A DNA stretch of 64,000 bases from an uncultured Candidatus Saccharibacteria bacterium (GCA_964495685.1 CAZBVQ010000002.1:107284-171283); one strand, 5' to 3'. Counted from the stretch's first letter, positions 45,066 through 64,000 are shown. Notes: generated from the letters alone by a model not told the origin. Translations and numbers: made by a program.

Positions 45066-45092
45066 CACTGGGTTCGAATCCAAGTGCCCCGT
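45066..45092 (+). other. tRNA 3' fragment (T-arm with a canonical GGTTCGAATCC loop plus acceptor 3' strand), a candidate attachment-site remnant
   Basis: CTGGG-TTCGAAT-CCAAG-TGCCCCG-T. No matching 5' half lies within 100 nt upstream. Confidence 0.4.
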
Positions 45093-45129
45093 AGCTTGAG
45101 GAAGCCTTACAAATACAGGTTGTTTTCGA

Positions 45130-45219
45130 GCTGGGAGGCTTGGACGATGTTCGGGCCTACGGTCACAAAGCAGAGCGAGCAGCCGCACTCATATATGCTC
45201 ACTTCAAAAAGGAGTTTGG
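45130..45219 (+). repeat. Direct repeat copy B (90 bp), the partner of 43368..43457
   Basis: It reads ELGGLDDVRAYGHKAERAAALIYAHFKKEFG. Differences from copy A are mostly synonymous third-position changes. Confidence 0.8.
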
Positions 45220-45264
45220 ATTTCCAGACGAACGGTAATGTGAAAGGTGCCGTTAGTTTTTGTA

Positions 45265-45624
45265 TCACTCACCTTGCTTGGCTTGGCGAGCGATTTCCCG
45301 CGCGATGATGTCGAGTGATGCCTCAATCTCCCGAAGCATCTCGATAATCTTCGCAAGCTCCTCGTGGCAATCGAGGCTTTGGCGTTTAATAAAACTGTCG
45401 AACAATTGTTTGATAAATCGACGGACCGAACGCTTGCGCGGTGTGTTGTATATTTTTTTCATACACGCCCAGAATAAACGGCGGGAACAAACCGACCAAG
45501 AGGGCAACCTTTGCCGGAAGCGGCAAGGTTTTGCGTACTTTGACAGAAAATAATGGTACGTTAGGATCCGAACGTCGTCGCATTTATTAGTCGTTAATCC
45601 CCAAACGCCCAAGCGCAAGGCCAT
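45265..45624 (-). CDS. Hypothetical small protein. The true start may be the internal Met MKKIYNT, giving about 66 aa
   Basis: The ORF has a basic N-terminus and a helical C-terminus. Confidence 0.25.
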   Translation of the reverse strand: MALRLGVWGLTTNKCDDVRILTYHYFLSKYAKPCRFRQRLPSWSVCSRRLFWACMKKIYNTPRKRSVRRFIKQLFDSFIKRQSLDCHEELAKIIEMLREIEASLDIIAREIARQAKQGE

Positions 45625-45653
45625 TCTTTTAGCCGAACCGCTGGGGAAAATAC

Positions 45654-46070
45654 ATGGGTGCTGACCTCTACATCAAAACCATCCGCCGCTCTCATAAGAC
45701 TCAACCTGACAACGAACAATCCACCAAACATGATCCAGCGGCTTCCGTGCTGTATTTCCGAGACCCCTACAATTTTACCAGTGTGCTTTGGACCCTTGGC
45801 TTATCCTGGTGGCGGGATGTGCTCCCCCTGCTCGACGCGAACCAGGAATTGAAAGGGCAAACGCTCCAACGCTTCAGAGATCAGGTAATGTGCGCCTATC
45901 AGCGGTTACCCACTGTGGAAGATTTGCAACGCGAGAAAGTCCGCGTAGATGCCACCGGCGAGCGCAGCGTCGCAGAATTGCACCGATATTACATCCAACG
46001 GCGAAAGCAACTCCTACGCTTTCTCAACTTCGCCATTTCAAATCGCGCGGCAATCACCTGCTCATTGTGA
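45654..46070 (+). CDS. Hypothetical protein (138 aa)
   Basis: ORF with no motif recognised. Confidence 0.3.
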   Translation: MGADLYIKTIRRSHKTQPDNEQSTKHDPAASVLYFRDPYNFTSVLWTLGLSWWRDVLPLLDANQELKGQTLQRFRDQVMCAYQRLPTVEDLQREKVRVDATGERSVAELHRYYIQRRKQLLRFLNFAISNRAAITCSL

Positions 46071-46661: not shown

Positions 46662-46703
46662 ATCCAGTGTCTGGCTTTATTGTCTCGTCTGGCAGGTTTC
46701 TGC

Positions 46704-46995: not shown

Positions 46996-47697
46996 CTAAT
47001 CGTTGCTAAGATTGCTTGCCTTCATTAAGGCTAGAATCAAATTGCCACTGACGGCGACTGCATTTTCCACATTTATCGTCCGCTCGCCGTTGGTGCTCGA
47101 TCTTTGAGAAGTTGAAGCCTGCATTCCAAAGACTCTCCCATCAGTATCGAAAACCGGCCCGCCACTCATACCAAATAGACCCACGTCGCGAATCAGTTGC
47201 CCCGTATGAACTCGGACAACGCCTTGTTTGTCCACGATTTGAGATTCTGCAAAATCCAACAGAAACGAGGGCTGAAAATACCGGCGCACTTTGATGACAT
47301 TGATGCCGCCTTTCCCATCGGCCTCCAATGCGCTCAGTGGGTATCCTCCGATGCAGAGGCTCTTCCCAACATCACCTACCTCCGGTGACAGTTTCGCAAA
47401 GTCAGGGGTTTCAATATTTACTTTTCCCAAAAAAATATCTTTGCCCTGATCCCGTGCGACCTCTTCTATGGCTAACGACGGATTTACTACATTATCCGGA
47501 AGCCACCCCGGGAAAATGAACTGCGTATGGTCATTTTTGTTGCTGAAGACGTGTTCCACAGAGGCAAAAACACCGTGAGAATTGACAAAGAACCCCGTCC
47601 CAACTACGCCTATCGAGAGCTGGCCTGGCTGCAATTGGTCACACCTAAACACGGGGAACATTGCCCTTTGGATCTTCTTGATTCCCGCTACGAACAT
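46996..47697 (-). CDS. Trypsin-like (chymotrypsin-fold, S1) serine protease with no signal peptide
   Basis: His region GTGFFVNSHGVFASVEHV and Ser region GMSGGPVFDTDGRVFGM, with a candidate Asp in KDIFLGKV. No N-terminal hydrophobic signal sequence is present. Confidence 0.6.
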   Translation of the reverse strand: MFVAGIKKIQRAMFPVFRCDQLQPGQLSIGVVGTGFFVNSHGVFASVEHVFSNKNDHTQFIFPGWLPDNVVNPSLAIEEVARDQGKDIFLGKVNIETPDFAKLSPEVGDVGKSLCIGGYPLSALEADGKGGINVIKVRRYFQPSFLLDFAESQIVDKQGVVRVHTGQLIRDVGLFGMSGGPVFDTDGRVFGMQASTSQRSSTNGERTINVENAVAVSGNLILALMKASNLSND

Positions 47698-48339: not shown

Positions 48340-48515
48340 ATCTATTAAAAGCTAAAGGACTATGCACCAATCAGTCAATGCAACGTAGATCAAGACACAG
48401 GGCAGACGCATCTAAATGTTTTTTGAAAATGTGTTTGCAAGTGGTTCAATGGAGCCAGCTTGCGCGGCCCGATTTTAAGGTTCCCAAGCGCGCCGTTTTA
48501 TGATTCAAACTGGGG

Positions 48516-49676
48516 ATGCCAATTCATCCCAAACTCAGTTTGATCGAACATTTCCAAAACCTCCCCGATCCGCGCATCAACCGCACCAAGGATCACGACT
48601 TGATTGACCTGCTGGTCATCGCCGTCTGCACGCTGCTCTGCGCCGGTGAGTCCTTCAACGACATGGAGGATTTCGGCCACGCCAAGCACGACTGGTTCAA
48701 AACCTTTTTGCACTTGCGCAACGGAATTCCCAGTCACGACACCTTCAATCGCCTCTTCGCGGCATTGGCCCCGGCGGCATTTCTGGAGTGTTTCGTACGC
48801 TGGACGCAGAGCCTGCGGCAGGCGGTGACACAGGAGATCGTGGCGTTGGACGGCAAGGCGCTGCGCCGGGCCCTGTCCGGCGCGCAAAGTCTCAAGATCG
48901 TGGTGAGCGCGTGGGCGCAGAGCAACCGGCTGGTCTTGGGCCAACTCAAAGTGGACGCCAAAAGCAACGAGATCACCGCCGTGCCCGAGTTGTTGCGCGC
49001 GCTGGAACTGGCCGGCTGCATCGTCACCGTGGATGCCATGGGCTGCCAGAAGCAGATCGCCAAGGAAATCATGGAAGCGGATGCCGACTACGTGCTGGCA
49101 CTCAAAGGCAATCACGAAACGGTGCATCAAGAGGTCAAAAGTTTTCTGGACGCAACACGCGCGGAAGTCCAGCCGCCGCGACCGGTCGGGGCCAAACGGT
49201 CCGCGGCGGCGACGACGTTGGCGCAGTGTCAGACGGTGGAGAAAGACCACGGGCGGATCGAAACGCGGCGCTACTATCAGAGCGCAGCCTTGGAGTGGTT
49301 TGCCGATCGGGCCGAGTGGCCGGGGCTGCAAACGGTGGGGATGGTGGAAGCGATCCGGGAAGTGGGCGCTCAACGGACGGTGGAGCGACGGTATTATTTG
49401 TCGAGCCTGCCGCTGGGGGTGGAAACGTTTGCGCGGGCAGTGCGGGGGCATTGGAGCGTGGAAAACAGCCTGCACTGGGTGCTGGACGTGCAAATGCACG
49501 AAGACCAGAGCCGCGCGCGGGCGGGCTACGCGGCGGAAAATCTGGCGACGTTACGGCGGCTGGCGTTAAACCTATTGAAACGCGAGACGACCAAACGGCG
49601 CGGCATCCGGGGCAAGCAACTCAATGCCAGCTGGGACCATGCCTATCTGCTCCGCCTCCTCGACGGCGAAATTTAG
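48516..49676 (+). mobile_element. ISAs1-family (H-repeat-associated, DDE) transposase gene. The IS boundaries are not resolved
   Basis: N-terminal region RINRTKDHDLIDLLVIAVCTLLCAGESFNDMEDFG together with the C-terminal HWSVENSLHWVLDVQMHEDQSRARAGYAAENLATLRRLALNLLK block is diagnostic of ISAs1/IS1358-type transposases. GC is about 62% by eye. Two long overlapping ORFs in other frames are high-GC artefacts. Confidence 0.85.
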
Positions 49677-49810
49677 ATGCGTTTGCCCTGGATCAAGACA
49701 TGGCATGGCGTAAGAGATTGCCTCCTATTGCCAGTGAGGTGAGATTTAGTCAGGCCACAAGAAGGCGCAGCTCGTGCGGAACTGCGCTTCAATGTCAAAT
49801 GACCAGTGGA

Positions 49811-51554: not shown

Positions 51555-51557
51555 CCA

Positions 51558-52624: not shown

Positions 52625-52714
52625 TACCCCTACATCACGGGCTACATACATGGTCCGTAGGGGCGAGTGCCCGTCACGATTGACTGGCACGGCTTAACCG
52701 CCGCACCACTAGCT

Positions 52715-52844
52715 CCCCAACGTGTCGTCGGCTACCGCCCGACTTAACGCTTTTTCCCTTCGGGCTAACCGGGTGCAGTCCACTAGCCGATGTCCTTTAC
52801 CCAAAAGCGTTAAGTCGGCCATTATCCGCCGACACGTTGGGGGA
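52715..52844. repeat. 130-nt nested inverted repeat with outer 13-bp arms ccccaacgtgtcg/cgacacgttgggg, inner arms of about 15 bp cgacttaacgcttttt/aaaagcgttaagtcg, and a 47-nt core carrying a CCC-TTC-GGG hairpin. It is a candidate oriT or structured RNA
   Basis: Read directly. It lies in a 430-bp GC-rich ORF-poor gap upstream of the T4CP-like ATPase. Additional local stems are at 52636..52674 and 52890..52920. Confidence 0.5.
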
Positions 52845-53057
52845 CTGGTTTTAAGAGAAGGTGCTACCGCACCGACCACCATTTCGCTAACGCGACCGCT
52901 TCGCCTCGAAGGGCGGAGGTGACGACGGTCCCCACGACCGCACGAGTCTGGAAAAAGCGTTGCCGCGACTGCGGCACCTGAAAGGCAGTCGCGCCGACTG
53001 GCGCGTCAATTTGCTGCCCACCTTGGCAAGTTTTGGTGTCTATGCCTCTTTTCCCAA

Positions 53058-54509
53058 TTGGTATATCGTGGGTTTCCCTATTCGGATTTCACAACCAGTC
53101 GCCATTACCTCGCCGGCTTGCCCCAAACCGCAGTTGCCGACGTTTGCAGACAAGAGGGCTTGCGGCAGGGCCACATGAGAAGTCTAAACGACACGGGGAC
53201 TTTTGGTGTGGCAGGGGTGGCGACTGGTTTTGGCACCATGAATGACCACACCATCATAATCGGCGAGCGGCACGGCTGGGGTGATCCTCAGCGCTTTGGC
53301 ATATCTGCGGAGGATCAGCGCCAGCATATTTATATCATTGGAAAGACTGGCTCCGGCAAAACCACCTTGCTGCGCAATCTGATTTTGCAGCACATCGCAC
53401 TTGGGCACGGTGTTGGCCTGATTGATCCTCACGGTGATCTGGCCGAGGAACTGTTAACCCACATTCCACCGCATCGAGCGGATCATCTTGTGTATTTCAA
53501 TCCGGGTGATCTTGAGTTTCCGATTGGCCTCAACCTGCTTGCCGATGTTCTAGCCGATGACCGGCACCTTGTTGCTTCCGGCATCGTGGGTGCATTCAAA
53601 GGCATCTGGCGCGACTCATGGGGACCAAGACTGGAATATATCCTCTACAATACTGTGTCAGCATTGCTTGATTGTCGGAATGAGACGTTGCTGGGCGTCA
53701 ATCGGATGCTCACGGACGACACCTTTCGGGCCAAGGTCGTTCGCCAGATCAAAGACCCCTTCATCCGGGCGTTTTGGGCGGAGGAGTACGGCGGCTACGA
53801 CGAGCGTTTCAAGCGTGAGGCTATTGCGCCGATTCAAAACAAGGTCGGGCAGTTCCTGTTGAATCCAGTCGTGCGGAATATTCTCGGGCAGGTCAAAACT
53901 AAGGTGAAGATTCCCTTCATCATGGACAACCAGCGATTGTTCATCGCGAACCTTTCCAAAGGACGCCTTGGTCACGACAAAGCCAATCTACTCGGTTCCT
54001 TGCTGACGACCCAATTCGAGCTTGGCGCCATGGCGCGGTCGAATCGTCCTGAATCAGAGCGCCGTGACTTTTACCTGTTCATTGATGAGTTCCAGAATTT
54101 CTCAACCGACGCGTTTGCTTCCATCTTGGCGGAAGCTCGCAAGTATCGTTTATGCCTCACGCTCTCACATCAATACATTGACCAGCTACCACTGCCGATC
54201 CGGCAGGCCGTGTTTGGTAACGTGGGAACCCTTATCGCCTTTCGCATTGGGAACACCGATGCCGAGGTGATGGAAAAGGAGTTCGGCAAAACGTTTCCAG
54301 CGAGCGCCATCGCCGATCTTGACCGATATGACGCAATGGTGAAGTTGCTTCAAGACGGATCGAACTGGGAACCGTTCCGGGCGAAGATGCTGCCACCATT
54401 GGAGAATCGCATTGGCCGCAAGGACAAACTCATCGCCCTGTCACGAGAACGATTTGCCACGCCACGCGCCATCGTTGATGACAAACTGAATCGGTGGATA
54501 CAGGTATGA
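53058..54509 (+). CDS. TraD/TrwB-type (type IV coupling protein-like, FtsK/HerA superfamily) P-loop ATPase without an N-terminal TM anchor
   Basis: Walker A IIGKTGSGKTT, Walker B FYLFIDEFQNF and the sensor-like LTLSHQYIDQ. The ORF-track start is a TTG. Alternative ATG starts at 53175 and 53238 are equally plausible. Confidence 0.55.
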   Translation: MVYRGFPYSDFTTSRHYLAGLPQTAVADVCRQEGLRQGHMRSLNDTGTFGVAGVATGFGTMNDHTIIIGERHGWGDPQRFGISAEDQRQHIYIIGKTGSGKTTLLRNLILQHIALGHGVGLIDPHGDLAEELLTHIPPHRADHLVYFNPGDLEFPIGLNLLADVLADDRHLVASGIVGAFKGIWRDSWGPRLEYILYNTVSALLDCRNETLLGVNRMLTDDTFRAKVVRQIKDPFIRAFWAEEYGGYDERFKREAIAPIQNKVGQFLLNPVVRNILGQVKTKVKIPFIMDNQRLFIANLSKGRLGHDKANLLGSLLTTQFELGAMARSNRPESERRDFYLFIDEFQNFSTDAFASILAEARKYRLCLTLSHQYIDQLPLPIRQAVFGNVGTLIAFRIGNTDAEVMEKEFGKTFPASAIADLDRYDAMVKLLQDGSNWEPFRAKMLPPLENRIGRKDKLIALSRERFATPRAIVDDKLNRWIQV

Positions 54510-54688
54510 ACATTCCGTTGTCACTTGAAACAGATCCCTTAAATAGAGCCGGAGGTCCGACGATGCTTGCAACAGTCCCGGAATCTGAAGCTGAAGTGAA
54601 GACCTTGTACGTCTGGCGTTGGAGCATCGTTTTTAACTATCAGTTGACTTTAACGACGCATTTTATAATGTGCCGAAGCGATGTCTGA
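54494..54688 (+). CDS. Small ORF (64 aa, GTG start) bridging the ATPase and jetA with overlaps at both ends
   Basis: It overlaps the ATPase stop by 16 nt and the jetA start by 8 nt. It may be a spurious ORF in the other frame. Confidence 0.25.
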   Translation: MDTGMNIPLSLETDPLNRAGGPTMLATVPESEAEVKTLYVWRWSIVFNYQLTLTTHFIMCRSDV

Positions 54689-56105
54689 AGCATTTTGGCG
54701 CGGGGCGGTAAATCGGAGGGCGAAGAATCTCGCCTTGATGAAGCCCTTTTTCGAACTGGAGGATAACAAGGGTCTCCACTTGCAGTTTGACCTGAAGCCA
54801 TACGACATGCATTTGCTCTGCTCTGTGCTGATGGAGTCCATCATCGCTGAGATGGGGGGACTGATAGCCGGCGCACAATACAATGCCGTTTTACGCGAAC
54901 TCTCGAAAGTGGTTCTCAAAGTCAATCCCTCAGCTTCCGCCAGCGAAATAGACCGGATCGCAAGTCATATTATTGGCCATCTCACAAACGAGCGCGGTCG
55001 CAGCCATTTTGAAGCATCATATCAGACGATTCGTGACGATGGCAGTGTCGAGACACTGACCCATCCATTTCGACTCCTTGAGCAGCGGCTTTCACCTGAT
55101 GACGATTTAGTTTATATCGCCACCTCTGAGGCCATCCACATTTATTTGAGTGGTCTGGGTCAAGACCTGGAGGCAGAACAAGCAGCGAATGACGCCGTCT
55201 TAGACCATTATCTTCGGCGTGGCAAGCACCGCGAAGCCGGAGAAGCGGCCGACATGGCACGTAAACGCAGCATTGAGCTGCGTACCCGTCTGCGCGGCTG
55301 GCTCATTGCAGCAGAACGTAGTTTCGACGAAATCCACTATGCGCAAAGCGTCCTTCAGGAGCTTGCGCGGATGCTCCAGCATGTGGAAGATCGGGGTCAC
55401 GTCGAACAACGTCAAATCGAAGAGATTCAAGCCCGCGCACTTCAGTTGCCCCCAGGTGACGAGGGACGTAACACACTGGTTGGGGCCCGTAAAGCAATTG
55501 AGGTGTCTGCCGATGAGCACGTCCGCTTGCTGGCTGACTTGCAATGTTGCAGCCGCACGCTTCTGGATTGGCAATCGCACCACCGGTTTCGACGCGGTGA
55601 AAGTCCGGCGTTACCGGATCCGATAAACGAATTTCTTGAGCCGGTACTGCGACTTACCAGCGGGGAGTTCCTAAATTTCCTTCCGATGCTTTGGCCATTT
55701 GCGGTACCTCCTGCACTTCCAGTGCTGCCGGATTTGCCAGCATTGCTGGATTCCCTGTTGGCCGATACACGTGAGCGGCCAGAGATATCTGAACTCGATC
55801 CAATTGCGGAATCCTATGAGGAGATGGCGGCTCCAAAGCGATTTACTCCCGAGACATGTAAGGCGGTGGAGGAGTTGCTCGCCGGACTGGGCGGAAAGTT
55901 TTCCCTTTCTCAAGCACTGGGGGCCGTTGCAGAAAGATTTTCTTTGGACAGCCCTGAACTCGCCTATGTTGCTGTTCTTGTGCCGCAATGGTTCGAGCAC
56001 GAGCCAGGTGACGGCAAAGTGGCCCATCCCAAAGGATGCGAATTTGAAGCGGCTGGATTTTTTGGAGACGACCTCGCAGTGACAGCAGAAGGTGCCATAG
56101 TATGA
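54681..56105 (+). CDS. jetA: Wadjet JetA (MksF-like kleisin-type subunit)
   Basis: 474 aa, the first gene of a four-gene operon whose third gene is an SMC-like ATPase and whose fourth is a Toprim-type protein. Size and position match JetA. A 4-nt ATGA overlap with the next gene indicates translational coupling. No catalytic motif is expected in this subunit. Confidence 0.5.
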   Translation: MSEAFWRGAVNRRAKNLALMKPFFELEDNKGLHLQFDLKPYDMHLLCSVLMESIIAEMGGLIAGAQYNAVLRELSKVVLKVNPSASASEIDRIASHIIGHLTNERGRSHFEASYQTIRDDGSVETLTHPFRLLEQRLSPDDDLVYIATSEAIHIYLSGLGQDLEAEQAANDAVLDHYLRRGKHREAGEAADMARKRSIELRTRLRGWLIAAERSFDEIHYAQSVLQELARMLQHVEDRGHVEQRQIEEIQARALQLPPGDEGRNTLVGARKAIEVSADEHVRLLADLQCCSRTLLDWQSHHRFRRGESPALPDPINEFLEPVLRLTSGEFLNFLPMLWPFAVPPALPVLPDLPALLDSLLADTRERPEISELDPIAESYEEMAAPKRFTPETCKAVEELLAGLGGKFSLSQALGAVAERFSLDSPELAYVAVLVPQWFEHEPGDGKVAHPKGCEFEAAGFFGDDLAVTAEGAIV

Positions 56106-56830
56106 CATCGGACCAGGTCAACGCTATTTACGAAGCCTCACGCCTTCTTCGGATCGCGCTTAACCCACGCGAAACGGCCGCTCGCAGCGCTGAATATCAG
56201 CAACTTCTCCAACGATTCCATACGGATCCGGTTTTCCGCGACACCACTCGCCAGATTGCTCGCGGTCTTGAACTCCAGATATTCGAACTCGCCCGTGACC
56301 TTGGTCTGGCGATAGTTAATACCGCGGGTGGCCCCTACGCACCTACATTGAATGATTTCCGCACTTCGATGCGTCCCCGCGACCGCATTATTTACGGTCT
56401 GCTTCTAGCCATGTTGACTGCTTACGTATATCCCAATCGGCGAGCGCTAGGTGAACTTGATGACAGTTCGGTCGTTTCCATCGAGTTGCGCGGCTTAGTG
56501 GAATGGGCATCGAGCACAAGTCGGCAGATGAAGTCTGCTGCCAATATTGAGGATGTAGCCAATGAAGACATGCGTGCTGGGTTTGAAGCCATCGCCATAC
56601 TTGAGCCATTCGGGGATGGGCAAAACACCTTACAGCATCGTTTCCGCTTTACGTTGCAGTGGCTTGCCGATCGCGGACTGTTCCTCTATCGAGAGGAGGG
56701 AGGAAAGGAGCTGTGGGTAGCCCGCCCTCACTTCCGTGTCCAAGCCCGCCACCTCATGCAAAGCACGCATGACCGCTTGATTGAATATTTGGGTGCCCGC
56801 GCGGAAGATCCCCGGAACACCTCAACCTAA
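56102..56830 (+). CDS. jetB: Wadjet JetB (MksE-like subunit)
   Basis: 242 aa, second in the operon. Size and order match JetB/MksE. Confidence 0.5.
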   Translation: MTSDQVNAIYEASRLLRIALNPRETAARSAEYQQLLQRFHTDPVFRDTTRQIARGLELQIFELARDLGLAIVNTAGGPYAPTLNDFRTSMRPRDRIIYGLLLAMLTAYVYPNRRALGELDDSSVVSIELRGLVEWASSTSRQMKSAANIEDVANEDMRAGFEAIAILEPFGDGQNTLQHRFRFTLQWLADRGLFLYREEGGKELWVARPHFRVQARHLMQSTHDRLIEYLGARAEDPRNTST

Positions 56831-56836: not shown

Positions 56837-59800
56837 ATGGCCAAACTTCTTCGAGTTCATCTTGCCGGCGTTGGACATCCAGATGCCCGCTTCCACCCTT
56901 TGTCGTTACGTCTTGATCAGAAAGGGTTGCCGATGAATTCCGTGGTAAACCTTCGCAATGCTGGCGGCAAGACATCGCTCCTGTCCTTGATCTACGCTGT
57001 TCTCCTGCCAGGCAAGCATGATTTTCTGGGGAAGGTGAACAACAGCAACCGTACACTTGATGAAAACTTCAACCCAGGAAAACTGGGTGTCGTCGCGCTG
57101 GAAATGGAAAGCCAAGCGGGCCGATTCAGTCTGATCTTGGCGTGGGTGCGCCGGGAACGGGAGGACCCGCCCACACTCCTTTCGTTTCGTTCCGGTCGCG
57201 ATGGAATCGAGTTTGATACGCTGCCGATTCAAGGTTTGAGTTCGGCACCTGTGGCAACGCTGTCAGAACTTTTGAGCTGGCTCAATGATCGGCATAGCCG
57301 ATCACCAGGCAACGTAGATCTGTATGTCGCCTCCAACTTTCGCGAATGGCAACTTCATCTCAAAACGCAGCGGGGAGTTGATTCGTACCTTTACCGAAGT
57401 CATTTGCAAATGAACAAGGCGGAAGGCGCAGTGGACGAGGAATTTAAGTTCACAAAAACCAACGACTTCATTCGGCGTTATCTTGAATTCGCCGTCGAAC
57501 CGCCCACGATGGGTCGTGAAGCTGAAGATCCGGTAACGGCCAACCTCAATGAGCACCGCCACGCGCTCATGAAGCAGCCGCACTACCGGAAAGAGCAGGA
57601 ATTCATCCAGGAAATGGTGCCTCACCTACAGGAGTTGGATGGCCATGCGCAACGGAAACGAAACGCGGATTCGGAGCGAAATGCAGCCGTTTCTGAACTT
57701 CAACAGCATGCGGATGGGGTTTTGTTTCTGGAGTCAAAGTTTCGCGCGGACGAGAAAACATACGCGACCGACTATGTCACCAAAAAGGGAGAACGGGACG
57801 AATTGGTGCGAAAACGCGATAATGCGAAGCGTCACGCTGCTGGATATGATCGCCGGGGCAAGGAACTAAAAATCGACGAAGCTGAAAAGGCCCGGGCAGA
57901 TGCCCAGAATAAAGCCCAACAATGCCTTGAGCGGTTTCACTTGGTTTCCGCAGCAATGCTGTGGCGTGACGTTCGGGGCGCCAAGGTTATGCTTGCGGCA
58001 TTGGTGGAACAACGCGAGCAATTGGACCAGGAGCTTCGTCCGGAGTTGGAGGAGGTTCAGCGGCGCGCTCTCCGTCTAAGTGCCGCGTTTGAAGAAGCAA
58101 TTGAAAATGCTCAATTCGCCTTGGAGGAAGTTAACGAGCAGAATTTGCAGTTGGGAACAACTTTAAGCCAGCAGCGTAAGGAATTAAAAGAATTGGAAGC
58201 CAAATGGTCCACGCTCACCAATGAACTTAGCAAGATCAACGGGCAGATCGATTTGACGAACAAGGCACGTGCACGCCTTGTATCTGACAGAATCGTACAA
58301 CCGCGCGAGGAAGTATCCGATGCAGAGGCTCGGCTAGGCACTGAAATTCAAAAGTTTGACGAAACGGCCAAATCCCTCCGCAATGATGCCATTAACGCCC
58401 GTGGCCGGGCCGGGATTCATCGTGCGGAAGCCGAACGACTTTCGAAACTGGCTGAGCAGTCCAAGAATATTGCGGCACAAGCCCGCTCCGATATCGGTCG
58501 GTTCGAGAAAAACCGGGACGCTTGTGCCGACCTTGAAGCGGTGCAGGAAATTCTTGAAGGTGGCCCATTCGACCCGTTCAACCCGGGCGTTGTCGATGCG
58601 TTGCAAGGGAGGGAAAAAGGATACCGTCACCAGCTCCTTGCTTTGGGAATTGAAAGGGCCGAAGACAAACGTCTGATTGATCATTATGATGCCGATAAGC
58701 ATCCGCTTTTCCCAGTCCCGCGCGAGGTTGAAAACCTCCTCGTGCGATTACGCGACGAGCAAAAAATACGTGGGATTCTCACGGCTTACGAATGGTTAAG
58801 CGCCAACTTGCCAGTGGATCAGGCGCAAGTCCGTCTGCAATCGGATCCAGCCACCTATAGCGGTTTGGTCGCGAATACCCTGGCGGACCTGGAAGCCGCC
58901 ACACTGGCCTTTTCAAAGTTCCCACTTTCTCGCCCCGTCAAAATTACATTGTCCAGCACGCTGGCGGCTTTCACGAGCAATTCAACCGCCACCGTAATCC
59001 CGGAACGGGCCGGTCTTTTCAACTCTCAAGCAGCAACAGTCGAACGCGGACAAATTCTCGAACACCAAAGTCAACTGGATCGTCAAGAAATCGAACTCGC
59101 TCAAATGGCCGAGGCTTTTGGAACCGCGGCCAATCAGGTCGGGGGTTTCCAGAAAGAGTTCGTCGTTGACTGGATCGAAGAAAGACGACGTTCGTTGGCT
59201 GAGAATGAAGCACTGACGTTTCAACACAACGCTTCTGCTGCGGCAGAACAGTCATCGGTCAACAGTGCTGATCAGGAAGCGCAGCGAGCAGACGCAGAGG
59301 CTTCTAGTTGCGAGACAAAAGCGGGCAGCGCCAGAACACAACTTGCTCAAGTCATAGACTTCCGGAATAACTTTGGTAATCAACTGGGCGAATGGCTCAA
59401 GCGACAAAAAGAACTGGCCGATCAAATTGCTGCAAACCAAGCTGAGCGAGGCTTGGTGGACGCACGCATTCGCGATCTGGAATCTCACGTTCCTCAAATG
59501 GCGGAAAGAGCGCAGAAAGCCGGAGTCCGGGTGATTGAACTGCGCTTGGCAAAGAGCAACGCAAAGTTAAGCACTTATCTTCCGCCGGATCCTCCTCCGG
59601 TGGCTCACGGCGATATCACCACGGAAGAACTCCCTTTTACCACCGCCCGCGATACTTACGAAAACAAAGCCCGGAAGGGGCCTTTGGAAACCGCGATCAG
59701 TTCGGCCCAACAGAGGCTTACAAACTGTGAAGGAGCTTTTGCTCGCGATGGCCACGGGAAAACATCTGAGCACGTCGCTGCTCTCTCCGCGGCTCCAGAC

Positions 59801-61180
59801 CTGGACATACAGGTGGAAACGGCGAAAAGGGATGACATCAATGCCAAAACCACACTCGCCGTTGCGCAAAAAGAATTGTCTCTGGCCGAGAGGGAACGTC
59901 CCAAGCCGTTGGGTGTCAATGAGCGTGCTGACCTTGATCCAGACCTGCCTGAACCCGTGACTGCGGCGGAGGCAATACAGATTAAGGACGAGAAGCTGCA
60001 GATCATGAGTGATTTTCATGATCAAGCAGAGGCCTTGCGAGATATCGTGAGCGAGCTGGAAAACAAGCAGCGGGAGGCCAAGTCGGTTGCCGATCAGTAT
60101 CGGAACATGGCGGACTTAACTTCCCCTGCGCGAGCTGCCGAGCCAAAGGAATATCAGGGATTAGTTGGCAATCCTGACAGAGATCGTGACCACATCAGGT
60201 CTGTGAAGCGGCGCTATGAAGATGCCAAAAAACTTCACGAGGAGCTTGCCGCAAAGATGGAACGCATCCACGACAATCACATCGAGATACTGGTGAAGCA
60301 CGAAAAATGGGATCGCTTTACGGTTGATATTCGTGACCGTTTGCGTCGGTTCACCCGTGCTGATTATGAGGCAAATACGATTCAGCTGATTCAGGATTGC
60401 AATGAACGCAAGGCTGGGTTGGAGGCGAAGCTGCAGGAGATCGAAAAAGTCAGGGGTGTGCTAATTGACCAGCTCTACAATCGTGCGAATGAGGCACTGC
60501 GTTCACTTGAGCACGCAGCCCGCCTAAGTCGGATGCCGGAAGGAGTTGGTGCGTGGTCTGGCCAGCCATTTCTGAAAGTACATGTTCCGGCCCGAGCTCC
60601 CCAGGCCGAGCGCCGCGTTCTATTAAGTCGCTTGATGGATTCGTGGATGTCGCCCCAAAAGAAGGACATGACCATCCCCCGCGGAGCCGAGCTCGCTTAT
60701 GAGTGTCTGATCGCCGTCATGAATCAACGGGAAATCGATATCGAAATCCTCAAGCCTGAAGCTTTTGATCCATTGGTTTGCAATTACCAGCCGGTGACAA
60801 AGCTTGCATCCTTTTCCGGTGGCCAGCGCGTGACGGCAGCCATCCTCCTATATTGCGTCATTGTTCGGGTTCGATCTGACCAGGGCGATATTTTGACCGA
60901 CTGTGGTTTCTTGATGCTCGACAATCCTTTTGGCAAGGCCAGTCATTTCCCCTTGGTGGAACTGCAATTGAAGATGGCTAACGTAATGGGAGTGCAGTTG
61001 ATTTACATGACCGGGATCAATGATCTGGAAGCCCTAGCGTCGTTCCCATTACGTTTGCGTCTCCGTAACAGCGCGCGTAATACGGCAAATGGCGAGCGCG
61101 TGGTCCAGCACGAATTACATACGGTCGAAGCAGTCCGCCTTGGTGAATCCGCCCCAAATGGAAACGCAACTCGTTCTTGA
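56837..61180 (+). CDS. jetC: Wadjet JetC, an SMC/MukB-like ABC-type ATPase (1447 aa)
   Basis: N-terminal Walker A LRNAGGKTSLLSLIY, a central coiled coil of about 1000 aa rich in E/A/R/Q/L, and a C-terminal ABC signature FSGGQRVTAAILLY with Walker B/D-loop FLMLDNPFGKAS. Confidence 0.75.
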   Translation: MAKLLRVHLAGVGHPDARFHPLSLRLDQKGLPMNSVVNLRNAGGKTSLLSLIYAVLLPGKHDFLGKVNNSNRTLDENFNPGKLGVVALEMESQAGRFSLILAWVRREREDPPTLLSFRSGRDGIEFDTLPIQGLSSAPVATLSELLSWLNDRHSRSPGNVDLYVASNFREWQLHLKTQRGVDSYLYRSHLQMNKAEGAVDEEFKFTKTNDFIRRYLEFAVEPPTMGREAEDPVTANLNEHRHALMKQPHYRKEQEFIQEMVPHLQELDGHAQRKRNADSERNAAVSELQQHADGVLFLESKFRADEKTYATDYVTKKGERDELVRKRDNAKRHAAGYDRRGKELKIDEAEKARADAQNKAQQCLERFHLVSAAMLWRDVRGAKVMLAALVEQREQLDQELRPELEEVQRRALRLSAAFEEAIENAQFALEEVNEQNLQLGTTLSQQRKELKELEAKWSTLTNELSKINGQIDLTNKARARLVSDRIVQPREEVSDAEARLGTEIQKFDETAKSLRNDAINARGRAGIHRAEAERLSKLAEQSKNIAAQARSDIGRFEKNRDACADLEAVQEILEGGPFDPFNPGVVDALQGREKGYRHQLLALGIERAEDKRLIDHYDADKHPLFPVPREVENLLVRLRDEQKIRGILTAYEWLSANLPVDQAQVRLQSDPATYSGLVANTLADLEAATLAFSKFPLSRPVKITLSSTLAAFTSNSTATVIPERAGLFNSQAATVERGQILEHQSQLDRQEIELAQMAEAFGTAANQVGGFQKEFVVDWIEERRRSLAENEALTFQHNASAAAEQSSVNSADQEAQRADAEASSCETKAGSARTQLAQVIDFRNNFGNQLGEWLKRQKELADQIAANQAERGLVDARIRDLESHVPQMAERAQKAGVRVIELRLAKSNAKLSTYLPPDPPPVAHGDITTEELPFTTARDTYENKARKGPLETAISSAQQRLTNCEGAFARDGHGKTSEHVAALSAAPDLDIQVETAKRDDINAKTTLAVAQKELSLAERERPKPLGVNERADLDPDLPEPVTAAEAIQIKDEKLQIMSDFHDQAEALRDIVSELENKQREAKSVADQYRNMADLTSPARAAEPKEYQGLVGNPDRDRDHIRSVKRRYEDAKKLHEELAAKMERIHDNHIEILVKHEKWDRFTVDIRDRLRRFTRADYEANTIQLIQDCNERKAGLEAKLQEIEKVRGVLIDQLYNRANEALRSLEHAARLSRMPEGVGAWSGQPFLKVHVPARAPQAERRVLLSRLMDSWMSPQKKDMTIPRGAELAYECLIAVMNQREIDIEILKPEAFDPLVCNYQPVTKLASFSGGQRVTAAILLYCVIVRVRSDQGDILTDCGFLMLDNPFGKASHFPLVELQLKMANVMGVQLIYMTGINDLEALASFPLRLRLRNSARNTANGERVVQHELHTVEAVRLGESAPNGNATRS

Positions 61181-62183
61181 AGCGGTTCAAGCCGCTATGC
61201 CGTCGGGGCGCACGCAGACCGATGTATTGTCTGTTTTTAATGCTCTTGCTGAACGCATGCCTCGATTGAAAACCGATCAGAACCGATGGGAGACTTTCGT
61301 CGATCTCCTAGGCGCCGCCGAAACGGAGGGACTCATTGTCCTGCCTTCACGCCTCGGGGCTGGATGGAACCAGGAGGTTATGCCAGCTCGACCCCAGTGG
61401 ATAAGACTTGCATTAACCAGAGAGCCTAGGGAAGTGTTTAACCATCGCGGGTTTCCGTGGAACTCCGCTCTCTCATTCCTGGCCGGAGAGAGAAGTCTGC
61501 CAACAGGAATTCGTGATGCCGCCGTCTCGATCCAGCAGTTCTTCGCCACGAATGGTCTGTCCCGACCGTTCGTTCCCGTCAAAGAACGGTCATTCGCAAT
61601 TTTTGGTGAGGAGAAACGGCTTGGCGCGCTCCAACACTCCGAGATTCTGTTCGGTCCTGGAAAATTGTCGCTCGAACAATTGCGCTGCTATGTGGTCGAG
61701 CCGACGCCCGTGACGGAACGATTTGATCAGGGTCACGGGATCATAGTTTTGGAAAACGAAGCCACCTTCGACTCATTTTGCCGGCTTTGTCGGCACACAC
61801 CCGCCTACCAACTCGTGGTCTATGGCCGCGGCCATGAAATCCAGAAATGCGCCGCTTATCTCAACCGCGAAGCCAGCCGATTGGGTGTTACAGAAATGTT
61901 TTACTTCGGCGACATTGACCGACGCGGCCTGGAAATCCCCTATCAACTGGCACATGACCCAGCCACCAAGGTGAAAGTCATACCCTTGCTTTTGGCTTAT
62001 AAGTTCCTCCTACGCCGTACCGCCTCTGCACCCTGTCATGTTTCTGAGGCTTGCCTGTGGTTACCCGAGCCATTAGCCACTTTGGCTGCAACCGTAATAG
62101 CTGAAGCAGGTCGCATCCCGCAAGAAGCATTCGGTTGGGAAGACATTTCGACAACTTATGGCATCGATCCTTTTATTACATAA
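61158..62183 (+). CDS. jetD: Wadjet JetD (Toprim/topoisomerase-VI-A-like nuclease subunit)
   Basis: The C-terminal region IIVLENEATFDSF ... VVYGRGHE ... MFYFGDIDRRGLEI matches the JetD/MksG Toprim-like layout (E ... DxD). The start is uncertain (61089, 61158 or 61197). The 61158 start would overlap the jetC stop by 23 nt. Confidence 0.6.
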   Translation: METQLVLEAVQAAMPSGRTQTDVLSVFNALAERMPRLKTDQNRWETFVDLLGAAETEGLIVLPSRLGAGWNQEVMPARPQWIRLALTREPREVFNHRGFPWNSALSFLAGERSLPTGIRDAAVSIQQFFATNGLSRPFVPVKERSFAIFGEEKRLGALQHSEILFGPGKLSLEQLRCYVVEPTPVTERFDQGHGIIVLENEATFDSFCRLCRHTPAYQLVVYGRGHEIQKCAAYLNREASRLGVTEMFYFGDIDRRGLEIPYQLAHDPATKVKVIPLLLAYKFLLRRTASAPCHVSEACLWLPEPLATLAATVIAEAGRIPQEAFGWEDISTTYGIDPFIT

Positions 62184-62992
62184 TGGGCAATCGAACAAAC
62201 ACTGACAATTGGACCGCTCGTGAGCGTTTGGTGCATATTGAACGCCTTGCTTATTGGCGCGGTTGGCTACGGCGAGGGGATCTTTGTGCTCGGTTTGAAA
62301 TATCCATATCTCAAGCCTCGGCGGATCTTGCGGCCTACATGCGATTGAATCCTGGGGCCCTCCATTATGACAGCAGCGCCAAACAATACGTTGGGGCCCC
62401 TAACATGTCTTGCCGACTGGTGACGCCGACTCTCGAAGATGCATTGCCCTTCATCGCTGTATCCAAACTCGTCGCATTTTCTGAGCATGACCAAATTGTC
62501 CGCATTGATCTGCCCCATCGGTGTGTTCCGCCACGCGCGGCACGCGACATTATACGGGCTATTGCCAATAAGTTGTCTTTGGAAATTTATTATTTCTCGA
62601 TTCACTCCGCGACCGAACAGTGGCGCCGGATTTCCCCCCATGCGCTCGCCCACGATGGCTATCGCTGGCATGTAAGAGCGTGGTGTCACCAAGGTAATGA
62701 ATATAAGGATTTTGTCCTTGGCCGAATCGGTAAAACTCGTTCCCTTGCAAGTGAAGGTGTGTCGCCCAAGCCTGATGAGGACTGGATAACATGGGTCACA
62801 TTGCATTTGCGGCCATACCGACGATTGTCATCAGTACAACGAAAAGCGATTGAACACGACTATGCGATGAGCGGTGGAATTACCGCTCTTAAAGTTCGGA
62901 AGGCAATGCTGATTTACACACTTTCCTATCTCCGGCTCACTCCAGAGATGGCAGAATTGGCGCGCCATTTGGAGGTTGTTAAATTTGACTGA
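62183..62992 (+). CDS. WYL-domain transcriptional regulator (wHTH plus WYL, BrxR/CapW-like)
   Basis: N-terminal wHTH (WTARERLVHIERLAYWRGWLRRGDLCARFEISISQASADLAAY) and WYL core HDGYRWHVRAWCHQGNEYKDFVLGRI. Its ATG overlaps the jetD stop (TAATG). Confidence 0.6.
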   Translation: MGNRTNTDNWTARERLVHIERLAYWRGWLRRGDLCARFEISISQASADLAAYMRLNPGALHYDSSAKQYVGAPNMSCRLVTPTLEDALPFIAVSKLVAFSEHDQIVRIDLPHRCVPPRAARDIIRAIANKLSLEIYYFSIHSATEQWRRISPHALAHDGYRWHVRAWCHQGNEYKDFVLGRIGKTRSLASEGVSPKPDEDWITWVTLHLRPYRRLSSVQRKAIEHDYAMSGGITALKVRKAMLIYTLSYLRLTPEMAELARHLEVVKFD

Positions 62993-63065
62993 CAAGCCTG
63001 TGTTCACTCATGACTCACCCGCCCGGCCAAGCTGGGTGTTGGTCAATCGTTTCCAGTACGTCGGG

Positions 63066-63551
63066 CTATCTCTCCCATCGTCCGCAATACGCCTCGTTGA
63101 AATGCTTCACCAGTTTCCAATATTTTTCAGGGTCAGTTTCCTTCATGGTCAAAAGCTCCGCCAGTTTGGCTGAAGCTCCAATCATGAGTTTCTTCATCTC
63201 GTCATCCGTGATGCGCGAAAGCTCCGGCTTTTCCAGAAGTTCTGAGTATTTGCCGGCGTGCAGTTCTTCAATGTAACCATTTCGAAATGCACAGCACGTC
63301 AGAGCATTGGCTTCTTCCCTTTTTGTCCACGAGCGTTCCATATCCATGATGGACGAAATTTTAGCAGAAATAATCAACGCCGGCAATGTGTGCTGCCAGC
63401 AAAACGACACCGCTAACGAATCAGTGAGTCCACTGTTTTCTTGAGCGAATATGAAATCAGTTCGAGGAAGCTTGGGAACTTGCCTCAAGCGGCAAACCCT
63501 GACGCCTACTGTCTCCGCTTTGCATCCGCCATGATGGTGCGATGCAATCAC
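63066..63551 (-). CDS. Hypothetical protein. The start is probably the internal Met MDMERSW, giving about 92 aa
   Basis: ORF with an acidic helical C-terminus. Confidence 0.25.
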   Translation of the reverse strand: MIASHHHGGCKAETVGVRVCRLRQVPKLPRTDFIFAQENSGLTDSLAVSFCWQHTLPALIISAKISSIMDMERSWTKREEANALTCCAFRNGYIEELHAGKYSELLEKPELSRITDDEMKKLMIGASAKLAELLTMKETDPEKYWKLVKHFNEAYCGRWER

Positions 63552-63590
63552 GCCTTCCCCGCTTCAATCGCGCTTCCACGGTTGCTCCCA

Positions 63591-64000
63591 TGCAACTCAC
63601 GGAGCGCGACCGCGAAATCATCCGGCTCGTCCACCGGCATCGTTTTCTCCGTTCCCCACATATCGTGGCGCTCATTGGCGGCAGTCAACAGCAGGTCTTG
63701 CGAAGATTGCATTTGCTCTACCATCACGGTTTTTTGGAGCGGCCCCGCACACAGATCGACTCATATTACAAAATCGGCTCCCGCCCCATTGCCTACGGGT
63801 TAGGAAACAAAGGTGGGATGCTTTTGCGGCAGGAGTTTGGTGTTAATCCCCGTGAAATATCTTGGAGTGAAAAGAACAGTTCCGTTGGCCGGACATTCCT
63901 TGAGCACGCGCTTTTTGTTTCGGATGTGATGGTCGCGATTGAACTCGCCTGCCGGGCGCGCGGGATTCGCCTTGTGGCCGAGCATGAGCTTGCCATTCCG
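63591..64000 (+). CDS. Replication-relaxation family protein, N-terminal part. The gene runs off the window end
   Basis: My own translation from ATG 63591 reads MQLTERDREIIRLVHRHRFLRSPHIVALIGGSQQQVLRRLHLLYHHGFLERPRTQIDSYYKIGSRP..., which is the characteristic N-terminus of plasmid/ICE replication-relaxation proteins. It is not in the ORF track because no stop lies in the window. Confidence 0.6.

What the first reader, a model, noticed from the sequence alone, without database searches (positions are those of the whole stretch)
45066..64000. Compositional island from about 45.1 kb to the window end, with a tRNA 3' fragment at its left edge and plasmid/ICE-type genes. Wadjet may ride on an integrative mobile element
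By eye, GC rises from about 45% to about 55-60% at roughly 45.1 kb, exactly where a tRNA 3' fragment with a canonical GGTTCGAATCC T-loop (45066-45092) sits with no 5' half. The island contains an ISAs1-family transposase (about 62% GC), a T4CP-like ATPase, a putative oriT-like repeat, and a replication-relaxation gene at 63591 onwards. A defence system that attacks circular plasmids being carried on a mobilisable element is notable. Alternatively the contig could be a metagenomic assembly chimera.
Basis: partly seen in the sequence, partly recalled or inferred. Interest (0 to 1): 0.55.

Follow-up and report, generated by a model that had tools for sequence, protein, structure and literature searches.

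The report
Wadjet cargo on integrated serine-recombinase element
The high-GC stretch is a roughly 37-kb plasmid-like mobile element, sitting in a strain-variable tRNA-Gln insertion hotspot, that carries a type III Wadjet anti-plasmid system as inserted cargo and belongs to a family that enters tRNA genes with serine recombinases whose attachment site lies inside their own gene.

Summary
GC rises from 47% (host, 17.8-43.4 kb) to 53-56%, but gradually between 45 and 50 kb, not as a step. The tRNA-like 27-mer exists, but no tRNA tool calls it.

Contigs from conspecific strains diverge from the window at 43,366-43,371. One of them has an empty tRNA-Gln(UUG) site there. Another has a 7.2-kb element that ends in a large serine recombinase (LSR) gene reading into that tRNA.

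The window carries two orphan LSR 3' tails, at 43,366 and 45,131. From 45,131 to about 82.6 kb (beyond the window) lies a 37.4-kb element. Its backbone is a conserved hairpin region, a T4CP-like ATPase, Replic_Relax, a primase, ArdC, a 1029-aa ATPase and an LSR. This backbone recurs in 27 genomes, nearly all labelled Verrucomicrobiota.

In four relatives the T4CP-like gene ends 150-200 nt before Replic_Relax. In the window 9 kb lie between them: JetA-D plus BrxR. None of the 29 related loci carries Wadjet.

No tyrosine integrase was found and the 27-mer has no second copy. Four assemblies cover the junction, so it is not a chimera. The matching LSR body and tRNA-Gln at the right end are missing, so the element may be locked in place.

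The parts
43366..43488 (+). Tail 1: orphan 3' end (40 codons plus stop, VLGGLDDVRAYGHKAERVAALIYAHFKKEFG...) of a large serine recombinase gene. This is the junction with the host flank and the true start of the strain-variable region.
   Evidence: Contigs of other strains with the identical 689-aa gene stop matching the window at 43,371-43,397. The tail is 68% identical to the C-terminus of the intact LSR in L031. It also finds 58 clusters of short orphan ORFs that end with this tail.
43365..43457 (+). Copy 1 of a 93-nt direct repeat. Copy 2 is at 45,127-45,219, 91% identical.
   Evidence: Five of the 7 differences are synonymous in the + frame (four synonymous codons and one V/A replacement), so these are two diverged copies of a coding tail.
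43695..44300 (-). NYN-domain gene inside the 1.76-kb remnant E1 (43,366-45,126).
   Evidence: Pfam NYN, 4.7e-26; PADLOC NYN/HEC-09.
45066..45092 (+). It is probably a tRNA-derived relic on the flank side of the second junction and is not an att repeat.
45131..45238 (+). Tail 2: second orphan LSR 3' end (LGGLDDVRAYGHKAERAAALIYAHFKKEFGFPDER*). This is the left end of the 37.4-kb element E2.
   Evidence: DNA homology to the intact L031 LSR gene starts at 45,134. L028 has the same order, tail followed by an o119-like gene. Homology to the element family spans 45,134-82,573.
45265..45624 (-). o119, a family-associated small gene next to the tail.
   Evidence: 54% identical homologue next to the tail in L028.
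46996..47697 (-). Trypsin-like peptidase gene (accessory).
   Evidence: Pfam Trypsin_2, 2.6e-9.
48398..49690 (+). ISAs1-family insertion sequence, a secondary insertion. It accounts for the 60-66% GC peak.
   Evidence: Pfam DDE_Tnp_1_assoc plus DDE_Tnp_1. 20-nt inverted repeats (pair I7). 10-bp target duplication GATCAAGACA.
52627..52930 (+). Conserved non-coding, hairpin-rich region (oriT-like). The long hairpin has arms at 52,708-52,754 and 52,803-52,849.
   Evidence: 70-83% nucleotide identity in 15 relatives. The outer stem is invariant. The inner stem covaries, with 7-9 of 16 sequences changed on both sides. No Rfam family matches.
53175..54509 (+). T4CP-like (TrwB/VirD4/HerA-type) ATPase, a backbone gene.
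   Evidence: Pfam, NCBIfam. 68-89% identical in the Verrucomicrobiota-labelled relatives.
54681..56105 (+). JetA (type III Wadjet), cargo.
   Evidence: PADLOC JetA3, 1.5e-62.
56102..56830 (+). Presumed JetB, assigned by position and size only.
   Evidence: No HMM or PDB hit. The AF2 model has pLDDT 49.
56837..61180 (+). JetC (SMC-like ATPase, type III), cargo.
   Evidence: PADLOC JetC3, 1.2e-127, full length.
61158..62183 (+). JetD (Toprim nuclease subunit, type III), cargo.
   Evidence: PADLOC JetD3, 1e-52; Pfam JetD_C.
62183..62992 (+). BrxR-type WYL regulator, part of the cargo block.
   Evidence: Pfam WHD_BrxR, WYL and BrxR_CTD, precomputed; WYL, 4.4e-12.
63066..63347 (-). 93-aa ORF, the last gene of the 9-kb cargo block. 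The block runs from about 54,520 to about 63,465.
   Evidence: Cargo limits come from alignment with relatives that lack the block.
63480..63495 (+). TTGCC-N6-GGCAA palindrome upstream of Replic_Relax. It also occurs at 43,543, 44,791 and 45,511.
   Evidence: 5 matches in the window against 0.32 expected. The copy at this position is conserved in relatives.
63590..64000 (+). Replic_Relax gene, 5' part. It is a backbone gene and ends at 64,444, beyond the window.
   Evidence: Pfam PF13814, 5.3e-13. Full gene seen.

Best explanation
Shown.
- The DNA right of the 689-aa gene, from 43,366 on, is an insertion hotspot at the 3' end of a tRNA-Gln(UUG) gene, and its content differs between conspecific strains.
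- Elements enter there by large serine recombinases (LSRs) whose attP lies inside the last 25-40 codons of their own gene. Integration therefore leaves the gene's tail at one end of the element, while the gene body at the other end reads into the tRNA on the opposite strand.
- The window holds a 1.76-kb remnant (E1, 43,366-45,126). It also holds a 37.4-kb element (E2, 45,131 to about 82,573, of which 18.9 kb lie in the window).
- E2 belongs to a family found in 27 genomes, nearly all labelled Verrucomicrobiota. The shared backbone is a conserved hairpin region, a T4CP-like ATPase, Replic_Relax, a DnaG-type primase, ArdC-RadC, two small genes, a 1029-aa VirD4/VirB4-like ATPase and an LSR.
- Type III Wadjet (JetA-D), a BrxR regulator and one small ORF form a 9-kb cargo block between the T4CP-like gene and Replic_Relax. 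Relatives have nothing at that point, or other, partly defence-like, genes.

Inferred.
- The element moves as a circle: the LSR handles integration and excision, transfer starts at the hairpin region with the Replic_Relax/T4CP-like pair, and primase and ArdC help establishment in the recipient.
- It is mobilisable rather than self-transmissible.
- In this strain it is probably locked in place, because the LSR body and tRNA-Gln that should flank its right end are absent.
For: Strain variation. The window shares more than 99.9% identity with L011, L013 and L014 up to 43,371-43,389 and none beyond.

Empty and occupied sites. L014 and L011 each carry a 5'-truncated tRNA (Rfam 37 bits, anticodon UUG). 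In L014 it abuts the 689-aa gene, which is an empty site. In L011 it is overlapped by an LSR of at least 551 aa that ends ...VLGDLDSNQDNQDQNLMSYH.

Split-gene model. Joining L011's LSR body to the tail at its other junction gives a C-terminus that aligns end to end with full-length family members. Of the 120 best relatives, 56 end in a tRNA read-through and 14 in the LD[DE]VR tail. A second LSR clade shows the same pattern. In L047 the LSR overlaps tRNA-Ser(CGA) by 33 nt and ends ...WRKGWDSNPR*.

The window's tails. They match the intact L031 LSR tail and 58 clusters of orphan short ORFs.

Backbone and cargo. Synteny holds across 29 loci, none of which has JetA-D or BrxR. The T4CP-like gene ends 150-200 nt before Replic_Relax in L023, L027, L029 and L034. 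At that hotspot relatives carry a TIR-DeoRC gene with PfkB, a caspase-like gene, and an AAA protein that matches PADLOC candidate families PDC-M36A and PDC-M28C.

Extent and support. Family homology runs from 45,134 to 82,573. Four assemblies give the same junction context.
Against: - The right end is not a clean junction. No LSR body of the tail's type and no tRNA-Gln exist anywhere in 1-92,246.
- The only LSR present (575 aa, 80,537-82,264, minus strand) is of the other clade. It is full length with its HTH_3 tail, so its own attP is un-recombined.
- The DNA left of the tail-2 junction is not the 689-gene flank, so E2 did not integrate directly into the site seen empty in L014.
- No mating-pair-formation genes were recognised. 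Replic_Relax is not a proven relaxase. No circular form or empty site was seen for E2 itself.
- Host taxonomy is inferred only from where relatives of the element occur.
Confidence: 0.7

Rival explanations
1. Classical tRNA-integrated genomic island. A tyrosine integrase would have inserted the island into a tRNA gene, and the 27-nt fragment at 45,066 would be the displaced att repeat, with an intact tRNA and the integrase at the far end.
For: A tRNA-like 27-mer lies 39 nt from a real junction. Composition changes near there.
Against: - No tRNA and no second copy of the fragment occur in 1-92,246.
- No Phage_integrase domain occurs between 43 and 92 kb. tblastn with L011's tyrosine integrase gives only noise.
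- The fragment points away from the island.
- The variable region starts 1.7 kb to the left.
Confidence: 0.04
2. Mosaic without a single integration event. The two tails would be fossils of earlier LSR elements. The Wadjet-bearing backbone would have arrived separately, for example by homologous recombination between an incoming plasmid-form relative and the resident relic, or as part of a multipartite or inverted arrangement. The '37-kb element' would then be a hybrid that never integrated as a unit.
For: - LSR575's attP is intact and of a different clade from the tails.
- The orientation of the LSR/HTH75 unit differs among relatives.
- The right junction is missing.
- Three independent assemblies break at 75,774-75,828, which suggests another related copy in the same community.
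Against: L028 shows the same order (tail, o119, hairpin region, T4CP-like gene) as the window. Family homology is continuous from the tail to HTH75.
Confidence: 0.2
3. Assembly chimera joining two organisms at about 45.1 kb.
For: Composition changes there. Logan contigs end at 43,397 and 45,148.
Against: The Logan breaks coincide with the 33-nt exact part of the 93-nt repeat, as expected for k=31 assembly. Four longer contigs, from the two WANG18-1 assemblies, a MEGAHIT-style 700-kb contig and one more, carry the same context. The two that were read across the region show 0-1 mismatches.
Confidence: 0.02

Closest known systems
Integrative conjugative or mobilisable elements with cargo hotspots that hold defence systems (for example SXT/R391 ICE hotspots; from my own knowledge)
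   Same: A conserved transfer and maintenance backbone, site-specific integration, and variable cargo inserted at fixed intergenic points, often defence genes. Here the cargo is Wadjet plus BrxR. Relatives carry a TIR-domain gene, a caspase-like gene, or a protein matching PADLOC candidate families PDC-M36A and PDC-M28C.
   Different: - The host range is almost entirely MAGs labelled Verrucomicrobiota.
- The integrase is a serine recombinase, not a tyrosine recombinase.
- The backbone genes (Replic_Relax, two TrwB/DUF87-type ATPases, DnaG-type primase, ArdC-RadC) match no curated conjugation family at its cut-off.
- No T4SS membrane components were recognised.
Integrases whose gene spans attP: phage Mx8 IntP and the SSV-type 'suicidal' integrases of archaea (PMC4383910, PMC7253208)
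   Same: The attachment site lies inside the recombinase ORF, so integration alters or splits the gene. Orphan fragments mark the ends of integrated elements.
   Different: Those are tyrosine recombinases. Here two clades of large serine recombinases do it, and only the last 25-70 codons are exchanged. In the second clade the exchanged part is an HTH_3 domain. In 2014 the Islander paper stated that serine recombinases were not known to target tRNA genes. I found no later description, but my search was limited.
[quoted passage not shown]
   Same: Integration in tRNA genes, replication genes on board, and a single T4CP/FtsK-type ATPase. The adjacent pair of T4CP-like gene and replication-relaxation gene also occurs on an Embleya plasmid.
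   Different: Tyrosine integrases and different Rep/Tra proteins. Protein identity is only 30-33%.
Type III Wadjet (JetABCD; PADLOC JetA3/JetC3/JetD3 models)
   Same: Gene order is A-B-C-D with overlapping genes. HMM matches for A, C and D are full length.
   Different: JetB is not recognised by any model. No solved structure is related by sequence. A BrxR-type regulator follows directly.
Tripartite ICEs of Mesorhizobium (PMC5882170)
   Same: One element with several recombinases whose att sites are not all in the simple integrated configuration.
   Different: This is an analogy only. No second or third part of the element was seen here.

Membership tests
Wadjet type III | JetA, JetC (SMC-like ATPase) and JetD (Toprim nuclease) homologues | tested here: met
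   PADLOC JetA3 1.5e-62, JetC3 1.2e-127 (residues 2-1427), JetD3 1e-52; Pfam JetD_C.
Wadjet type III | JetB (KITE subunit) between JetA and JetC | tested here: inconclusive
   A 242-aa ORF sits in the right place and overlaps jetA by 4 nt. It has no Pfam, PADLOC or PDB match, and the AF2 model has pLDDT 49.
tRNA-integrated genomic island (Islander signature) | Intact tRNA gene at one end, its displaced 3' fragment at the other, and an integrase inside | tested here: not met
   No tRNA in 1-92,246 by ARAGORN, which passed a positive control. The fragment at 45,066 has no partner. The signature is met in the sister strain L011 and in relative L047.
Large serine recombinase (integrase) | Resolvase catalytic domain plus Recombinase domain, with or without a zinc ribbon | tested here: met
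   LSR575 has PF00239, PF07508 and PF01381. The L011-type family has PF00239, PF07508 and PF13408. Only tails of the latter type lie inside the window.
Large serine recombinase (integrase) | Recombination between the predicted attP and attB | not testable with these tools
   Inferred from junction sequences and from the two classes of C-terminus.
Integrative conjugative element (self-transmissible, T4SS type) | Relaxase, T4CP, VirB4 ATPase and mating-pair-formation genes | tested here: not met
   The T4CP-like gene passes Pfam TrwB_AAD_bind. However, every NCBIfam conjugation model scores far below its cut-off. No membrane T4SS components were found among the Pfam annotations. A mobilisable or minimal-transfer element is more likely.
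Replic_Relax (PF13814) | Match above the Pfam gathering score | tested here: met
   49.9 bits against a cut-off of 25.3 on the part inside the window.
ISAs1-family insertion sequence | DDE_Tnp_1_assoc plus DDE_Tnp_1 transposase, terminal inverted repeats and a target-site duplication | tested here: met
   (pair I7).
BrxR-type regulator | Winged-helix, WYL and BrxR C-terminal domains | tested here: met
   Precomputed Pfam PF26109, PF13280 and PF26107; WYL 4.4e-12.

The most novel reading that the evidence does not exclude
Capture of a plasmid-cutting Wadjet may have gone together with immobilisation of its carrier. Of 30 elements of this family examined, only the Wadjet-bearing one carries Wadjet, and it lacks the recombinase body and tRNA junction it would need to excise. 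Its excised form would be a 37-kb circle. That is below the roughly 100-kb upper limit reported for JetABCD cleavage (abstract of bioRxiv 10.1101/2022.10.04.510915; the systems characterised so far are mainly type I). On this reading Wadjet is incompatible with an actively excising element and marks a domesticated one. Alternatively, the missing junction lies elsewhere on the chromosome and the element is split like a multipartite ICE. Independently of this, tRNA-targeting serine recombinases with attP inside their own ORF may be an undescribed and very large class, with thousands of homologues in two clades and named members in Verrucomicrobiota and Patescibacteria MAGs.
Probability: 0.12. 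Interest if true: 0.8.

Novelty: new variant of a known kind. Interest (0 to 1): 0.58.

Why it matters
- It gives a concrete case of an anti-plasmid SMC system carried by a plasmid-like integrative element. It shows how Wadjet got there: as a 9-kb cargo block dropped into a fixed backbone hotspot. This raises a testable question: can such an element still excise as a circle in the presence of its own Wadjet?
- It defines an apparently undescribed family of integrative elements found almost entirely in Verrucomicrobiota MAGs, with a conserved oriT-like structured region.
- It shows that two clades of large serine recombinases use tRNA 3' ends as attB while carrying attP inside their own gene. 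The Islander paper (2014) stated that serine recombinases do not target tRNA genes. Orphan tails and tRNA read-through C-termini could be used to map such elements automatically. They could also supply new att/integrase pairs for engineering.

Tried and rejected
- Megablast of 44-64 kb against PLSDB plasmids and GenBank phages gave no match.
- The 689-aa flank protein found no relative in GTDB genomes or JGI metagenomes, so no empty site with its right flank could be recovered.
- I first read the 93-nt repeat as a tRNA-like RNA, then as a minus-strand coding end, and then as the C-terminus of a tyrosine recombinase (an 'YGH...IYAHF' motif). All three were dropped. The minus frame has a stop 11 codons upstream. 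The L011 and L031 recombinases proved to be serine recombinases with exactly this tail.
- An apparent extension of tail-2 homology upstream ('LEEAL') was rejected. DNA alignment with L031 shows that homology starts at 45,134.
- A minus-strand ORF at 44,883-45,188 that reads 'LDSNP' through the fragment is not LSR-like upstream of that motif.
- Rfam on the fragment, including placing it at the end of the searched stretch, gave nothing.
- A search for an LSR body of the tail's type in 1-92 kb found none.
- A look-up of o119 for an alternative (circular) context returned only the integrated context.
- JetB single-sequence structure prediction was too poor to use.
- Sample accessions were not found in the paper library. 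Protein names were masked, so taxonomy could not be read directly.

Full report
**1. Checking the observation**

Sliding GC and a segment table show a real but modest and gradual change.
- Host genes between 17.8 and 43.4 kb (GAPDH, DHODH, a MacB-type exporter and a branched-chain amino-acid ABC cluster) average 47.3% GC.
- 45,127-48,397 averages 49.8%, the insertion sequence 60.3%, 49.7-52.6 kb 51.5%, the backbone 55-56% and the Wadjet block 53.0%.
- There is no step at 45.1 kb.
- The tetranucleotide distance to the host segment doubles from the 45-kb window onwards.

The motif GGTTCGAATCC occurs exactly once, at 45,071. ARAGORN and Rfam do not call a tRNA there.

- the ISAs1-type transposase;
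- the T4CP-like ATPase;
- the 47-nt inverted repeat;
- Replic_Relax from 63,590;
- type III JetA, JetC and JetD.

**2. The sequence beyond the window**

Exact-protein look-ups found the same DNA in several metagenome assemblies, with 0-1 mismatches. These include a 700,686-bp contig. I extended the sequence to 92,246 in window coordinates.

To the right of the window lie, in order:
- Replic_Relax, a DnaG-type primase, small ORFs and ArdC-RadC, ending at 68,783;
- a low-GC (46%) block with a glycosyltransferase, a radical-SAM enzyme, two TrpRS/TyrRS-like genes and PrnB, up to about 74.9 kb;
- a high-GC block with a 1029-aa TrwB/DUF87-type ATPase;
- a 575-aa serine recombinase on the minus strand (80,537-82,264) and a small HTH gene;
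- SUKH immunity genes and a giant RHS toxin gene.

No tyrosine integrase and no tRNA were found up to 92 kb.

**3. The real left boundary is a tRNA-Gln hotspot**

Looking up the 689-aa flank protein returned contigs from other samples. They are more than 99.9% identical up to 43,371-43,389 and unrelated beyond that point.
- In L014 the next 59 nt are a 5'-truncated tRNA (Rfam 37 bits, anticodon UUG). This is an empty site, with tRNA-Gln 81 nt upstream of the 689-aa gene.
- In L011 a 7.2-kb element sits there. At its far end a large serine recombinase (LSR) gene runs into the same tRNA on the opposite strand and ends ...VLGDLDSNQDNQDQNLMSYH.
- At the near end of L011, right at the flank, an orphan reading frame encodes VLRVLDDVRTSLISISDLNWFRIVKTW*.
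- Joining the LSR body to this tail gives a C-terminus that aligns end to end with full-length relatives of 557-568 aa.

So attP lies inside the 3' end of the LSR gene, and integration splits off the tail.

**4. This is a family-wide property, and it occurs in two LSR clades**

Among the 120 best relatives of the L011 enzyme, 56 end in a tRNA read-through ('DSNQ/DSNP...SYH') and 14 in the LD[DE]VR-type tail.

The 575-aa LSR of the window's element belongs to another clade.
- Most relatives are about 500 aa and end ...WRKGWDSNPR.
- About 20 are longer and carry a C-terminal HTH_3 domain, as the window's enzyme does.
- In L047 the 503-aa relative overlaps tRNA-Ser(CGA) on the opposite strand by 33 nt.

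The Islander paper (2014) stated that serine recombinases were not known to target tRNA genes. It named Mx8 and SSV, both tyrosine enzymes, as integrases that extend across attP. I found no later description, but the search was limited.

**5. What the window contains**

A 93-nt direct repeat (43,365 and 45,127; 91% identical) encodes two versions of one tail: LGGLDDVRAYGHKAER[V/A]AALIYAHFKKEFG.... Five of the 7 nucleotide differences are synonymous.

The same tail ends an intact LSR in relative L031. It also begins locus L028, where an o119-like gene follows it, as in the window. A search of 1.8 billion representatives found 58 clusters, all short ORFs with variable N-termini that end in this tail. 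These are orphan tails of integrated elements.

Homology of the window to the intact L031 gene starts at 45,134, the same point as the flank junction of tail 1. Both tails are therefore recombination junctions.

E1 (43,366-45,126) is a 1.76-kb remnant with a NYN gene. E2 starts at 45,131.

**6. E2 is a member of an element family found mainly in Verrucomicrobiota**

A scan of GTDB species genomes with Replic_Relax returned 29 loci. Twenty-seven are full-length relatives (51-74% identity). Nearly all come from MAGs labelled Verrucomicrobiota, such as Limisphaerales, Verrucomicrobiae and Pedosphaera.

tblastn shows a shared order:
- T4CP-like gene, Replic_Relax, primase, and small ORFs o94, o109 and o95;
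- ArdC, o153, o242 and the 1029-aa ATPase;
- o148 and o81, the HTH gene and the LSR.

Homology of the window to these loci runs from 45,134 to 82,573 and stops there. That gives an element of 37.4 kb.

The 300-nt non-coding region upstream of the T4CP-like gene is 70-83% identical in 15 relatives. It folds into a long hairpin with an invariant outer stem and a covarying inner stem. No Rfam family matches it. I read it as an oriT or another single-strand structure.

**7. Wadjet is cargo**

In L023, L027, L029 and L034 the T4CP-like gene ends 150-200 nt before Replic_Relax. In the window 9.08 kb lie between them.

Alignment places the cargo limits at about 54,520 and about 63,465. None of the 29 loci contains JetA-D or BrxR.

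Other relatives carry different genes at the same point:
- a TIR-DeoRC protein with a PfkB kinase;
- a caspase-like protein;
- an AAA protein that matches PADLOC candidate defence families;
- a transposase.

The low-GC biosynthetic block between ArdC and o153 is a second cargo insertion of the same kind.

The ISAs1 element is a third, recent insertion with a clean 10-bp duplication.

**8. What does not fit**

- The right end of E2 lacks the LSR body and tRNA-Gln that the tail-2 junction predicts.
- The LSR that is present has its own attP un-recombined. Its core, GGGTGGCGGAAGGGGT, is shared with the tRNA-Ser 3' end.
- The 65 nt left of the tail-2 junction are not the 689-gene flank. The fragment is therefore most simply a relic of a convergent tRNA beside the attB in which E2 first integrated. 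This was followed by deletion or rearrangement, or by arrival together with a piece of foreign flank.
- E2 in this strain is probably unable to excise by the route its family uses. A multipartite or inverted arrangement cannot be excluded.

**9. Verdict**

The proposed att site, the integrase type and the limits do not hold.

The element is a new variant of a known kind. The most interesting by-products are:
- the tRNA-targeting serine recombinases with attP inside their own gene;
- the question whether a circle-cutting Wadjet is compatible with an excising 37-kb carrier.

Noticed in passing
window 1-17,800: Prophage or phage-like region, all on the minus strand: SU10-type portal (7,699-9,711), a weak large-terminase match (9,756-11,438), an N6/N4 methylase and a C5 methylase (11,855-15,077) and an AAA_24 protein. 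GC is 44.6%. Host GAPDH follows at 18,275.
   Followed up: partly
window 24,640-26,710: A 495-aa ORF with only 34.8% GC (GC3 29%) and no Pfam domain lies next to an S24-peptidase gene, between two ABC systems. It looks like a separate small foreign insert.
   Followed up: no
window 52,627-52,930 and relatives L018-L042: A 300-nt non-coding region is conserved at 70-83% in 15 relatives. It has several small hairpins that keep pairing through double changes (for example CTACATAC/GTATGTAG versus CGACTTAC/GTAAGTAG) and a 40-bp long hairpin. No Rfam family matches. It could be an oriT, a single-strand promoter or initiation site, or a new RNA.
   Followed up: partly
window 43,543; 44,791; 45,511; 63,480 (also 17,086): The palindrome TTGCC-N6-GGCAA occurs 5 times against 0.32 expected. 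The copy upstream of Replic_Relax is conserved in relatives, and two copies lie in remnant E1. It may be an operator of an element-encoded regulator or a small terminator.
   Followed up: partly
proteins P0001-P0120 and P0122-P0241; loci L011, L047: Two LSR clades have thousands of homologues (2,295 and 5,511 hits). Named members include Paceibacterota, Minisyncoccia, Bacteroidota and Verrucomicrobiae MAGs. Their annotated C-termini are translations of the reverse complement of tRNA 3' ends. In the second clade integration removes a C-terminal HTH_3 domain.
   Followed up: partly
beyond the window: extended coordinates 68,881-74,700 (L015 7,822-13,656): A low-GC cargo block holds a glycosyltransferase, a radical-SAM enzyme, two class-I (TrpRS/TyrRS-type) aaRS-like genes and a PrnB-like gene. 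The 557-aa aaRS-like protein has no relative at E<1e-30 in 5.8 billion proteins. It may be a small tryptophan-derived natural-product cluster.
   Followed up: no
beyond the window: extended coordinates 83,030-92,246 (L017 1-9,217): A giant RHS/YD-repeat toxin (more than 3,460 aa, with Colicin-DNase/WHH tips) and at least two SUKH-family immunity genes directly abut the right end of the element. The RHS gene has 57.5% GC.
   Followed up: no
L011 1-7,243: The 7.2-kb element that occupies the tRNA-Gln site in another strain carries both a tyrosine integrase (382 aa) and the LSR, plus an IF-2B-family protein.
   Followed up: no
P0266 (78 aa): A predicted protein fuses the first 47 residues of an L031-type LSR directly to the conserved tail. 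This looks like an internal deletion derivative of the recombinase gene.
   Followed up: no
extended coordinates 75,774-75,828: Three independent assemblies (two WANG18-1 scaffolds and a Logan contig) end at 75,828, and a fourth scaffold starts at 75,774. This suggests a second, related copy of the backbone in the same genome or community.
   Followed up: no
PLSDB NZ_CP108778.1 (Embleya plasmid) 281,441-283,327: The adjacent pair of T4CP-like gene and replication-relaxation gene also occurs on an actinomycete plasmid (33% and 30% identity). The pair may be an old functional module.
   Followed up: no
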